A stretch of 64,000 nt of DNA from Octadecabacter sp. GTDB lineage: Bacteria; Pseudomonadota; Alphaproteobacteria; Rhodobacterales; Rhodobacteraceae. How positions within the stretch are numbered: position 1 is the stretch's first letter; each line of letters starts with the position of its first letter. Position numbers and translations under genes: made by a program. Location: positions 15,295 through 79,294 of the forward strand of contig JABBAI010000180.1 of the NCBI GenBank assembly GCA_018608045.1, read 5' to 3'. The notes beneath the pieces were generated by a model. It did not search any database. It was not told where the DNA came from and saw only the letters and a program-made list of their open reading frames with translations. This document shows, in pieces, positions 16,855-19,399 of the stretch.

Positions 16855-16908
16855 GTAGTCGTCTGTCGTTGTGACAGGCCAAGTGTCCGACTACCTTGTC
16901 AAAACGGA
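16855..16908 (+). promoter_or_regulatory. Structured 5' leader with alternative folds; candidate riboswitch
   Basis: Stem 16866-16878/16895-16907 covers the GGA RBS; competing hairpin 16861-16867/16873-16879; extra pairing GTAGTCG/CGACTAC. Confidence 0.4.
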
Positions 16909-16916
16909 TTGATAAA

Positions 16917-17552
16917 ATGACCAAAATTCTTCCTGGCGTCATCGCCATGGCCATCGTTGTGGTGACCTCTAACATCCTTGTGCAGTTTTTGATCCTTGAT
17001 GGATTGCTGACATGGGGTGCCTTTACCTACCCCCTCGCGTTTTTAGTGACCGATGTGATGAACCGCGTTTACGGTGCCAGCACCGCGCGCCGGGTCGTTC
17101 TAATCGGCTTTGTCGTTGGCGTTGTGTGTTCACTGATTGGCAGCCAAATCATGATCCAAGGCGATGGATTTGAATTCCCGGCTGTGGCGCTGCGGGTGGC
17201 TATCGGATCTGCGACCGCGTTCCTTGTGGCGCAGTTGATCGATGTCGCAATCTTCCAACGACTTCGCGGTGGCACATGGTGGAAAGCGCCGCTGACATCC
17301 ACGTTAGTGGGATCGACAATCGACACCGCGTTGTTCTTTACGATCGCATTCAGCGCGACGGTGTCGTTCGGCGCGGCGGCTGATGGCGAAGTATCTTGGG
17401 CGTGGGATGCCGTTCCGTTCCTGCTGTCCGGCCCCGAAGCCCCGCTGTGGGTCACACTGGCCGTCGCAGACTGGGGCGTGAAGATTGCAATCGCATTGAT
17501 CGCCCTGATCCCGTTCCGCATCATTATTGGGCGCCTACAGCCCGCCACATAA
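16917..17552 (+). CDS. yhhQ: Queuosine precursor transporter (YhhQ / VUT family)
   Basis: SNILVQ, TWGAFTYPLAFLVTDVMNRVYG, RVAIGSATAFLVAQLIDV, GSTIDTALFFTIAF. Confidence 0.9.
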   Translation: MTKILPGVIAMAIVVVTSNILVQFLILDGLLTWGAFTYPLAFLVTDVMNRVYGASTARRVVLIGFVVGVVCSLIGSQIMIQGDGFEFPAVALRVAIGSATAFLVAQLIDVAIFQRLRGGTWWKAPLTSTLVGSTIDTALFFTIAFSATVSFGAAADGEVSWAWDAVPFLLSGPEAPLWVTLAVADWGVKIAIALIALIPFRIIIGRLQPAT

Positions 17553-17619
17553 ATGTGGTCATTTTTTTCTTTGCAAAACGCATAAGTTGTGTTTTTCTGT
17601 CCTTATTAGAAACAAATGC

Positions 17620-17790
17620 AAAGGAGGTGATCTAGTGTCTAGAAAGATATTGGAAACGTGTGTCGGGACAACTGTGGGGGCGAAAATCTAGGGCATTCCC
17701 TAGACGATTAACGCCGCAGGTGAGACCGCTCTAACCGGCCACCTCCTGAACTTTCGAAGGGCCGCCCTCATAGTAGGGCGGCCCTTTTTC
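17620..17790 (+). ncRNA. Candidate small RNA / small-ORF transcript (extended SD, 18-codon ORF at 17635-17691, internal anti-SD, terminator)
   Basis: AAAGGAGGTGATC at 17620-17632; GTG ORF MSRKILETCVGTTVGAKI*; hairpin 17687-17704; CACCTCCT at 17740-17747; terminator at 17757-17790. Confidence 0.55.
17757..17790 (+). terminator. Intrinsic terminator
   Basis: AAGGGCCGCCCT-CATAGT-AGGGCGGCCCTT followed by a T-rich tail. Confidence 0.85.
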
Positions 17791-17820
17791 TTTGGTCTGA
17801 CAAGATGTTATGGGTGGCAC

Positions 17821-18240
17821 ATGGGACTTCGCATCAACGATCAAATAGACATCGCCGATTGGGAGCTTGTGGAAAGCTTCGTGCGCGCGTCCGGTCCAGG
17901 TGGGCAGAACGTCAACAAAGTCAGCACAGCTGTTGAATTGCGGTTTGAAGCCGCACGATCCCCCGCGTTGACCGGTCCTGTCAAAACACGTCTTCGCCGC
18001 TTGGCGGGGCGAAAATGGACGGGCGACGGCGCGATTGTGGTCTTCGTGCAAGACACGCGATACCAAGCGCGCAACCGTGAACTGGCGCGCGAACGACTGG
18101 CCGACATGATCCGCGCCGCTTTAGTTGCGCCGAAACGTCGGGTGAAAACCCGTGTGTCGCAAAACCAGAAACGCAAACGGGTGGATGAAAAGAAAAAGCG
18201 CGGCGAAGTCAAAATCCTGCGGGGGAAAGTGTCTGACTGA
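17821..18240 (+). CDS. arfB: Alternative ribosome rescue peptidyl-tRNA hydrolase
   Basis: FVRASGPGGQNVNKVSTAVELRF (GGQ motif), QARNRELA, basic C-terminal tail. Confidence 0.94.
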   Translation: MGLRINDQIDIADWELVESFVRASGPGGQNVNKVSTAVELRFEAARSPALTGPVKTRLRRLAGRKWTGDGAIVVFVQDTRYQARNRELARERLADMIRAALVAPKRRVKTRVSQNQKRKRVDEKKKRGEVKILRGKVSD

Positions 18241-18256: not shown

Positions 18257-19399
18257 TTAGGTTGGTGTCAAACAGGTCGCCATCATGCTGGAATAAATAT
18301 AGCGCGTGGCTGTGAGGGCCCCCACAGGCCTCAAGAATACGAGTAAATAACCATCCGACGGCGCAACAAACCCACCGAGATCCAGATCGCTTCGGTTCAT
18401 ACCGAGAGGCAAGGGGACGGCGTCCAAAGACCCAATCAATGTTCGATTCGTCGTGCCAGTGTTCGACCATCCAGCATTCCATGGTCCTGTCTGAAAATAG
18501 ACCCGTGCATCAAATCCAGTGATCTCTGTGTTATTTACACGTAACCCAATCCTAAGCCGTTGAACCTGTGTGTTTTCTGGAATGAACGGGCCAAGGTTTG
18601 TCCATGATTCAGTCGGCTCAGCGCCTGTTCCACTATTCTGTGAATTATTTTCACTCTGGGCACCGTAGGCCGTAGAAAACGTCACCCACCGATTGTCGGA
18701 ATAACAATACCAGCGACCGCCAAAATCAATCCGGTTGGACACCTGCGCGCCAGATGGGAAATTCGCCCGTCCCGTTGCCGCATTAAAGGACACGCCGGTG
18801 TTCCACGTCGCAGCATCGGCGCTGACTTTGACTGCAAAGTCGTCTGATCCGGCAGTGCCCATTTCTGCGCGGCCAGAATATCCCGTCTGAAACAGAAGAC
18901 TTGCTGTATCAGTTTCACAGTCTTTGTTGACGACAATGCGGTGGTCGCTTCCGGCGTGTGACAGCAAAGTCGCATCCGACGACACCGCGAGACGATTGGT
19001 TGCATCCGCTGTCGTATTGATCCCAACGCTGTCGAGGTTTTGTAACGCTGATGCATCAATTCCAGAGCCGACCCAATCAGACCCGTCCCAAATCAGCACC
19101 ACACCTTCGCTGCGCACAACGGCCTGCCAACCTTCTTGTGGAGGGTAAAACGCCCATGCTGCATCTTCAAACACAGCGATTGATCCGTCTTGTCCTGTCC
19201 AGTCCGCACTTGCAGATGGCCCAACGATATGACGGTCACCCGCTATCGGTGTTCCGGGCGGCGCGGTTTGATCTCGATCTGCCACCGACAACTGAACAAG
19301 CGCGTCCAGAACACGGATCGCTTCGTTATGAGTGACGTGTTTTTGCGCCTGAGAAGGCTGAATATAAGGCAAACCTAGGGTGTGGGACGACTCGGACAT
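18257..19399 (-). CDS. DUF2793 domain protein (GTA/phage tail-fibre-like)
   Basis: LGLPYIQPSQAQKHVTHNEAIRVLDALVQLSV, GINTTADATNRLAVSSDATLLSH, SLLFQTGYSGRAEMG, VKVSAD; GGAGGAG RBS upstream. Confidence 0.85.
   Translation of the reverse strand: MSESSHTLGLPYIQPSQAQKHVTHNEAIRVLDALVQLSVADRDQTAPPGTPIAGDRHIVGPSASADWTGQDGSIAVFEDAAWAFYPPQEGWQAVVRSEGVVLIWDGSDWVGSGIDASALQNLDSVGINTTADATNRLAVSSDATLLSHAGSDHRIVVNKDCETDTASLLFQTGYSGRAEMGTAGSDDFAVKVSADAATWNTGVSFNAATGRANFPSGAQVSNRIDFGGRWYCYSDNRWVTFSTAYGAQSENNSQNSGTGAEPTESWTNLGPFIPENTQVQRLRIGLRVNNTEITGFDARVYFQTGPWNAGWSNTGTTNRTLIGSLDAVPLPLGMNRSDLDLGGFVAPSDGYLLVFLRPVGALTATRYIYSSMMATCLTPT

What the first reader, a model, noticed from the sequence alone, without database searches (positions are those of the whole stretch)
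17620..17790. Unannotated small transcript with a 13-nt perfect match to the 16S 3' tail, an 18-codon ORF and its own anti-SD, upstream of arfB
Seen: in the 268-bp yhhQ-arfB gap, AAAGGAGGTGATC (17620-17632) is the exact complement of the conserved 16S tail GAUCACCUCCUUU, much longer than the RBSs I noticed at ordinary genes here. It is followed by GTG 17635 and MSRKILETCVGTTVGAKI*, whose stop sits in the hairpin TCTAGGG-CATT-CCCTAGA. CACCTCCT (17740-17747) can pair back with AGGAGGTG (17622-17629), and a 12-bp terminator with a T tail closes the unit. Inference: options are (i) a small-protein mRNA silenced by long-range SD pairing, as in type I toxin mRNAs, though this peptide is not hydrophobic; (ii) a 30S-binding decoy RNA; (iii) a trans-acting sRNA using its anti-SD; (iv) an attenuator coupling ribosome state to the rescue factor arfB, which starts about 30 nt after the terminator.
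Basis: partly seen in the sequence, partly recalled or inferred. Interest (0 to 1): 0.78.

Follow-up and report, generated by a model that had tools for sequence, protein, structure and literature searches.

The report
rreR: known ribosome-gripping mini-mRNA gene
This is a copy of rreR, an already published tiny gene whose start matches the tail of the ribosome's own RNA over 16-17 bases ahead of an 18-codon frame; it is predicted to flip between a fold that hides that site and one that exposes it, and its place beside the ribosome-rescue gene arfB is likely gene order rather than control.

Summary
The 16S match is longer than stated: 13 Watson-Crick pairs, one G-U, two more pairs and a further G-U. 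The unit is rreR (Hahn et al., PMC5711450): extended SD, GTG, 18 codons, Rhodobacter/Roseobacter clade. Its peptide is 10/18 identical to the published Dinoroseobacter RreR. It scores below cut-off on Rfam CC2171, whose above-cut-off hits share the same anatomy. The SD-start motif is in 215 of 301 family genomes. Start, stop and length are conserved; the peptide sequence only weakly. Comparative folding suggests two states: SD hidden by the anti-SD in free RNA, and a covarying rod once the SD is occupied. arfB follows in 27 of 30 family loci but in 1 of 75 elsewhere, and no antiterminator is predicted, so attenuation is not supported. Function remains unexplained in print. The scan found this gene before on other DNA (e1-5134861 and others). 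Already known; interest 0.3.

The parts
17571..17576 (+). Likely -35 element (TTGCAA) of the rreR promoter
   Evidence: TTG is enriched at -51..-49 from AGGAGG in 54 homologous upstream regions. The strict sigma-70 scan found no site. Inferred, not mapped.
17608..17793 (+). rreR small mRNA, about 180-185 nt; ends inferred
   Evidence: Rfam CC2171 hit 17610-17785, 40 bits, E 2.3e-6. A/C-rich 11-14 nt leader in homologs. Terminator.
17620..17636 (+). Extended Shine-Dalgarno: 13 Watson-Crick pairs + G-U + 2 pairs + G-U to the 16S 3' tail, running into the start codon
   Evidence: Duplex -26.4 kcal/mol against a best of -20.6 among 2994 long ORFs of the genome (crude start choice).
17635..17691 (+). 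18-codon sORF (GTG ... TAG), RreR peptide
   Evidence: 10 of 18 residues identical, ungapped, to D. shibae RreR. 18 codons in 27 of 30 unfiltered family loci.
17631..17654 (+). [quoted passage not shown]
   Evidence: MFE. 91.2% of cells paired in 43 sequences, mostly one-sided changes. Dominant in 44 of 52 and 17 of 25 homologs.
17642..17646 (+). 5' strand (GAAAG, codons 3-4) of the alternative rod helix; partner 17751-17755 (CTTTC)
   Evidence: 87.4% paired, 4 of 5 pairs with two-sided changes, one pair AU 26 / GC 16 / GU 1 with none broken. Probability 0.99 when the RBS is held unpaired.
17687..17704 (+). Hairpin over the stop codon
   Evidence: Sequence, MFE. A similar stem with a CA-starting loop follows the stop in homologs.
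17740..17747 (+). Internal anti-SD (CACCTCCT), predicted to pair with the SD in the free RNA
   Evidence: 94.7% of cells paired, changes one-sided and G-U only. Dominant in 50 of 52 and 25 of 25 homologs.
17756..17793 (+). Intrinsic terminator
   Evidence: 9 of the 15 RNAalifold consensus pairs, all 9 in this stem, show two-sided changes.
17806..17814 (+). Possible own promoter of arfB (TG-t-TATGGG, 6 nt before the ATG; leaderless type)
   Evidence: Weak profile in 43 arfB upstream regions: TTG at -38..-33 in 16, A at -11 in 22, SD-like motif in 1. The motif reading is recalled; not mapped.
17821..18240 (+). arfB (neighbour, not part of the unit)
   Evidence: NF006718, 166 bits, cut-off 100.
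16896..17552 (+). yhhQ-type queuosine precursor transporter (upstream neighbour)
   Evidence: TIGR00697, 90.6 bits, cut-off 50.95.

Best explanation
The unit is an rreR gene: a likely stand-alone mRNA of about 180 bases whose 16-17-base match to the 16S tail likely grips the small ribosomal subunit, with a predicted two-state fold and a likely weakly translated 18-codon frame whose translation probably matters more than its peptide. Shown here: anatomy, orthology to rreR, conservation of start, stop and length, and a covarying long-range helix. Inferred by folding: in the free RNA the anti-SD and the start-codon hairpin close the ribosome site, leaving only the A-rich 5' leader and 2-3 A's as a toehold. 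When 16S rRNA invades, codons 3-7 and the freed 3' strand would refold into a rod just behind the start codon, which blocks re-closing and slows initiation. Transferred from rreB, not measured for rreR: tight 30S binding, very weak translation, and decay that depends on the start codon. The net role is therefore likely a ribosome-gated, self-limiting mRNA whose lifetime and trickle of peptide follow initiation capacity. Identity as rreR is about 0.97; the confidence given below is for the mechanism.
For: Identity: 10/18 peptide identity to D. shibae RreR, and the paper's definition is met. Translation signal: stop at codon 19 in 53 of 54 loci as TAG 34 / TGA 11 / TAA 8 (set partly length-filtered). 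Unfiltered check: 27 of 30 with 18 codons, stops TAG 12 / TAA 9 / TGA 9 over all 30. The start is GTG or ATG (once TTG) at a fixed spacing across Alphaproteobacteria. Peptide weakly constrained: mean entropy by codon position 0.95 / 0.96 / 0.84; pN/pS 0.70-0.85 in pairs under 90% identity against 0.28 for arfB. Peptides of other clades are unrelated in sequence and 14-32 codons long. Closed fold dominant in 50 of 52 and 25 of 25. Rod helix covaries, 0 of 500 shuffles, and forms in 24 of 25 held-out homologs once the RBS is blocked. rreB experiments: PMC5711450.
Against: No experiment on rreR RNA is in the papers seen; only its peptide was studied (unstructured). The SD:anti-SD helix shows no covariation above shuffles (54 of 500 reach it), because the SD cannot vary. 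The RNAalifold consensus recovered only the terminator and a 3-bp hairpin, neither long-range helix. Shuffle tests ignore relatedness. pN/pS is 0.35 in the 24 closest pairs, and RNA structure also lowers pS, so selection on the peptide is not excluded. Transcription is not shown here: RNA-run contigs give no strand or ends.
Confidence: 0.55

Rival explanations
1. The RreR peptide is the effector and the RNA structure only keeps it silenced until some condition, as in type I toxin mRNAs.
For: Fixed 18-codon length and recurring residues S2, E7, G11, T12. pN/pS below 1, 0.35 in the closest pairs. Tight predicted closure, about 12 kcal/mol to open the RBS in the window copy.
Against: Conserved residues sit in helices, and third positions vary no more than first and second. 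The peptide is hydrophilic and was unstructured by CD/NMR (PMC5711450, PMC7217052). RreB and RreR share no sequence. Putative RreB overproduction did not affect growth. I did not search for an antisense antitoxin.
Confidence: 0.2
2. It is a ribosome-sensing attenuator or cis-regulator that sets arfB expression by read-through.
For: arfB lies downstream in 27 of 30 family loci and 44 of 54. smpB sits in that place in L125. arfB is divergent upstream in L040. One contig in an RNA run spans 17631-17886 across the terminator. Hahn et al. speculate that rreB traps ribosomes that need rescue.
Against: The terminator core is intact in 50 of 52 homologs whichever of two ribosome positions is blocked. 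The cost of freeing its 5' arm in the nascent RNA is about 3.2-3.5 kcal/mol in all states (4.2-4.5 here), against about -22 for the terminator. Terminator-to-arfB spacing runs from 15 to 903 nt, once with a gene between. arfB shows a weak own leaderless-promoter profile. Only 1 of 75 non-Rhodobacterales loci has arfB within 1.5 kb. Contigs cannot show one transcript and may be DNA.
Confidence: 0.1
3. It is a 30S decoy that withdraws small subunits from translation.
For: Strongest SD duplex in the genome by a crude scan. rreB co-sediments with 30S.
Against: 20-fold overexpression of 17c-rreB left growth unchanged, and ribosomes far outnumber the RNA. A decoy would not need a conserved stop codon and length.
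Confidence: 0.08
4. It is a trans-acting sRNA that blocks target SDs with its CCUCC anti-SD.
For: The anti-SD is near-invariant. Weak E 0.29 similarity to the suhB/MmgR model.
Against: The anti-SD is predicted to be paired inside the RNA in both folds, and its variation keeps pairing to its own SD. The suhB match is mostly the terminator. No target prediction was run.
Confidence: 0.07

Closest known systems
rreR of the Rhodobacter/Roseobacter clade (Hahn et al., RNA Biol 14:1353, PMC5711450; peptide SP-3 in PMC7217052)
   Same: Extended SD ending in the first base of a GTG; 18-codon sORF; peptide 10/18 identical to D. shibae RreR; same clade by synteny with named Ruegeria, Sulfitobacter and Paracoccus loci.
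   Different: One C>T change makes position 14 a G-U pair (13 perfect + wobble instead of 16 perfect). The paper's text does not mention arfB, CC2171 or Rfam, nor a 3' anti-SD or second fold for rreR; its Fig. 8 could not be seen.
rreB of Bradyrhizobiaceae (same paper)
   Same: Same RBS design; my SD-start pattern also fetched rreB-type loci (14 codons, L090 next to tRNA-Gly). It is the source of the 30S-binding, weak-translation and decay data.
   Different: 14-aa unrelated peptide, a different neighbourhood, and an anti-SD inside the ORF rather than near the 3' end (read by eye and by folding).
Rfam RF01867 CC2171 (Caulobacter sRNA; Northern-confirmed in Methylorubrum, bioRxiv 10.1101/2022.01.24.477521)
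   Same: Same 5' motif, size, long-range 5'-coding/3'-end helix and terminator. All 5 above-cut-off hits carry the extended SD, a start codon and a 21-26 codon ORF.
   Different: The window scores 40 bits, below the 75-bit gathering score; the middle of the RNA is not alignable; Rfam types the family as a non-coding sRNA.
Type I toxin mRNAs with sequestered SD; ribosome-dependent attenuators (recalled)
   Same: Long-range SD occlusion; small ORF ahead of a terminator.
   Different: No hydrophobic peptide; no predicted antiterminator.

Membership tests
rreR (Hahn et al.) | At least 16 nt complementary to the 16S 3' end, ending in the first base of the start codon | tested here: met
   16-17 bp including one or two G-U; strictly perfect for 13. 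16S tail taken from 5 same-genus genomes.
rreR (Hahn et al.) | GTG start and 18-codon sORF | tested here: met
rreR (Hahn et al.) | Peptide homologous to RreR | tested here: met
   10 of 18 identical, ungapped, to D. shibae RreR from PMC7217052 Table S1A.
rreR (Hahn et al.) | Rhodobacter/Roseobacter clade | tested here: met
rre genes (rreB paradigm) | Discrete small RNA that binds 30S, is weakly translated and decays in a start-codon-dependent way | not testable with these tools
   Shown only for rreB. RNA-run contigs inconclusive.
Rfam RF01867 CC2171 | Score at or above the gathering threshold (75 bits) | tested here: not met
   40 bits, E 2.3e-6, full model length.
Rfam RF01867 CC2171 | 5' AAAGGAGGUGAUCC motif, 5'-coding/3'-end helix, terminator | tested here: met
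   same architecture, so a divergent sister group rather than a scored member.
Ribosome-dependent transcription attenuator | Antiterminator exclusive with the terminator and switched by ribosome position | tested here: not met
   (equilibrium folding only).
Type I toxin mRNA | Hydrophobic toxic peptide | tested here: not met
   Sequence is hydrophilic; RreR unstructured.
Type I toxin mRNA | Antisense antitoxin RNA | not tested
   No search made.

The most novel reading that the evidence does not exclude
rre RNAs are a built-in ribosome test substrate. The over-long SD plus the rod behind the start codon trap an initiating ribosome on purpose, and how fast it is cleared reports on, or tunes, ribosome rescue. 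That would be why rreR sits directly in front of arfB across Rhodobacterales, in front of smpB in one genome, and back-to-back with arfB in another family.
Probability: 0.13. Interest if true: 0.75.

Novelty: already known. Interest (0 to 1): 0.3.

Why it matters
The gene is published, so this copy is not a discovery. Its function is still open: the searches found no follow-up on function. The motif is very widespread: about 9300 stored stretches estimated from 1/64 of the genome collection, and one copy in most family genomes that match. The additions here make it more testable: (1) rreR/rreB and Rfam CC2171 look like one class, a link not found in the papers searched; (2) a covarying second fold that excludes the start-codon hairpin; (3) evidence that translation, more than the peptide, is under selection; (4) the arfB neighbourhood. 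If the rescue link were real it would be a new way of sensing ribosome state.

Tried and rejected
The strict sigma-70 promoter scan found nothing. Other Rfam hits (RefA9, suhB, ctRNA, CRISPR-DR49 and others) are E 0.29-4.8 and terminator- or composition-driven. The plasmid collection gave no match. The RNAalifold consensus did not recover either long-range helix. An antiterminator I noticed by eye (CGGCC pairing with the terminator's 5' arm) did not survive folding. An apparent EQP peptide motif in some non-family homologs is out of frame in L041 and coincides with a small RNA hairpin, so it was not taken as an arrest motif. Neighbour scans of other alphaproteobacterial loci found no recurring partner gene and no rescue genes apart from smpB in L125 (147 of 170 downstream and 145 of 210 upstream candidate frames scanned). 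No tmRNA in 60 loci scanned. RNA runs: 8 of 14 RNA holders were laid, all contigs. Two cover the unit (X5 17631-17886, X7 17514-17750); each also crosses into a neighbour or its gap, so they show neither transcript ends nor read-through. The anchored pair table is circular for the CCTCC core (the anchor was chosen by that motif), so I rely. Passages of PMC10117765 and PMC13009471 had no bearing.

Full report
Observation. The sequence shows every element at the stated place: the 13-mer at 17620-17632, GTG at 17635, 18 codons, TAG at 17689-17691 in a hairpin, the anti-SD at 17740-17747, the terminator at 17756-17787 and arfB from 17821. The 13-mer is unique in the 2.78-Mb assembly, where 0.066 copies are expected; no other site matches 11 of its bases. 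The assembly holds no 16S gene, so the tail was read from 5 of 5 same-genus genomes searched. Pairing runs 13 Watson-Crick pairs, G-U, two pairs, G-U, i.e. 16-17 bp into the start codon. The duplex is -26.4 kcal/mol, stronger than any of 2994 long ORFs in a crude scan (best -20.6). The region folds with z = -4.64.

Identity. I recalled a paper on such a gene, and the search found it. Hahn et al. (PMC5711450; I read parts 1-4 of 6, abstract to discussion, and searched the supplement by terms; figures not visible) describe rreB. It is a 165-nt Bradyrhizobium mRNA with a 17-nt SD that co-sediments with 30S, is translated very weakly, and is stabilised from 10 to 37 min when its start codon is replaced by a stop. 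They name rreR as the Rhodobacter/Roseobacter counterpart: 16-17 nt complementarity ending in a GTG, with 18 codons. The D. shibae RreR sequence is in PMC7217052 (passages and supplement part 1 of 2 seen). The window's peptide matches it at 10 of 18 positions without gaps. This is rreR.

Relation to Rfam. The unit matches RF01867 CC2171 over the full model at 40 bits (E 2.3e-6; cut-off 75). The family rang in 22 of 121 class genomes, 5 over the cut-off. Of the 23 other loci fetched, 18 have the extended SD, a start codon at the same spacing and a 21-32 codon ORF, including all 5 over the cut-off. One (L050) is a chance match inside a gene, and four lack the motif. CC2171 was Northern-confirmed in Methylorubrum with no function given (bioRxiv 10.1101/2022.01.24.477521, passages); Rfam 15 lists it only in a table (PMC11701678, passage). 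The Hahn text names neither CC2171, Rfam nor arfB, and the CC2171 search listed no paper joining the two (20 of 22 hits listed). Subscription papers and bioRxiv supplements were not searchable.

Conservation. The DNA matched 30 of 61 genomes, 28 of 36 in the family. The SD-start pattern is in 215 of 301 family genomes, in two copies in one genome, with 0 control hits. A scan of 1/64 of the genome collection gave 121 loci, mostly Alphaproteobacteria, with an estimate of about 9300 stretches. In 54 Rhodobacterales-type loci the stop is at codon 19 in 53 (TAG 34, TGA 11, TAA 8). That set passed a length filter, so I checked 30 unfiltered loci: 27 have 18 codons, 2 have 20, and 1 is a 26-codon subtype (L202 repeats the genome of L025). 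The peptide is only loosely held. Entropy by codon position is 0.95, 0.96 and 0.84. pN/pS is 0.35 in the 24 closest pairs and 0.70-0.85 beyond, against 0.28 for arfB. RNA structure also depresses pS, so this argues for, but does not prove, that translation matters more than the product.

Structure. In the free RNA the SD:anti-SD helix dominates in 50 of 52 homologs (2 of 54 had no terminator call) and in 25 of 25 held-out ones (3 without a terminator call, L202 and L223 left out). On a 43-sequence alignment (9 of 52 with long inserts or near-duplicates left out), this helix is 94.7% paired with only one-sided G-U changes, and the start-codon hairpin is 91.2% paired. Neither beats the shuffles (54 of 500), although slid controls fall to 45-53%. 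A second helix, codons 3-4 (17642-17646) with 17751-17755, does covary: 4 of 5 pairs have two-sided changes, one pair is AU 26 / GC 16 / GU 1, and 0 of 500 shuffles reach the score. It competes with the start-codon hairpin and is absent from the free fold. It appears in 24 of 25 held-out homologs, and at 0.99 in the window copy, when the RBS is held unpaired. It corresponds to the outer helix of the CC2171 model. RNAalifold recovered neither long-range helix, which is what two competing folds would give but is also a result against. I infer a closed free state and a ribosome-bound rod state. (My notebook entry 2 gives the 3' strand one base off; 17751-17755 is right.)

arfB. The order yhhQ-rreR-arfB is typical of the family: arfB follows in 27 of 30 and yhhQ precedes in 26 of 30. 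arfB is in 44 of 54 loci, and 4 of the 10 misses have under 320 nt of flank. Against coupling: spacing varies from 15 to 903 nt. The terminator stays intact in 50 of 52 homologs whichever of two ribosome positions is blocked, and its 5' arm is no more sequestered in any state. arfB has an SD-like motif in only 1 of 43 upstream regions. It shows a weak promoter profile spaced for a leaderless start: TTG at -38..-33 in 16 of 43 against a 10% mean and 33% maximum background, and A at -11 in 22; the TA test was barely above background. Outside Rhodobacterales only 1 of 75 loci has arfB within 1.5 kb, divergently. For coupling: smpB stands in arfB's place in L125, one RNA-run contig crosses the terminator, and Hahn et al. 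speculate about trapped ribosomes and rescue. These hints keep the rescue link alive at about 0.13. Searches for arfB with Rhodobacter small RNA, or with leaderless and Caulobacter, found no papers.

Expression. Not shown here: 8 of 14 RNA runs holding the stretch were laid, all as contigs; two cover the unit but give no strand or ends.

Earlier scan notes (unchecked AI notes) reached the same identification on other genomes, and two also proposed Gemmatimonadota relatives and a two-state fold. My identification and folding tests came before or in the same turn as those notes.

Verdict. Real, ordinary in the sense of already named, function still open. It works most likely as a ribosome-gated, self-limiting mini-mRNA (0.55). 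It is a member of rreR, a below-cut-off sister of CC2171, and not an attenuator or type I toxin by the features tested. Interest 0.3.

Noticed in passing
L076, L104, L161, L168/L179, L185-L189 (records titled Gemmatimonadales/Gemmatimonadota, and the phylum of G165): rre-like units outside Alphaproteobacteria: extended SD, GTG, 14-22 codon ORF (the 21-22 codon type with an internal anti-SD), long-range pairing and a terminator-like hairpin. The pattern is in 10 of 151 genomes of that phylum, 6 of them with the full unit. Hahn et al. list only alphaproteobacterial orders; earlier scan notes already report this.
   Followed up: partly
L096 (Planctomycetaceae MAG), L080 (Terriglobales MAG), L083 (Pseudohongiella MAG): Single rre-like candidates with 10, 17 and 25 codon ORFs. 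Misbinning is possible: L094, labelled Cytophagales, carries a roseobacter-type copy.
   Followed up: no
L125:825-1337 (-): smpB lies directly downstream of rreR in place of arfB in a Rhodobacterales MAG; this copy also has a 22-codon ORF through loss of the usual stop.
   Followed up: partly
L040:2122-2520: arfB lies divergently 466 nt upstream of an rre gene in another alphaproteobacterial family.
   Followed up: no
L101 and L102 (one Sphingomicrobium contig): Two different rre subtypes (18 and 22 codons) 4.3 kb apart.
   Followed up: no
L009, L010, L012, L015, L018 3' UTR; L003, L006, L020, L024 between terminator and arfB: Insertions of 35-60 nt in the 3' UTR leave both long-range helices intact; short TGTACAC-type repeats sit between the terminator and arfB in several relatives.
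   Followed up: no
window 18257-19399 (-): A 380-aa ORF converging on arfB with no NCBIfam family; by recall its N-terminus resembles phage/GTA tail-associated DUF2793 proteins (untested).
   Followed up: no
window 17544-17567: A weak terminator-like hairpin over the yhhQ stop, just before the rreR promoter region.
   Followed up: no
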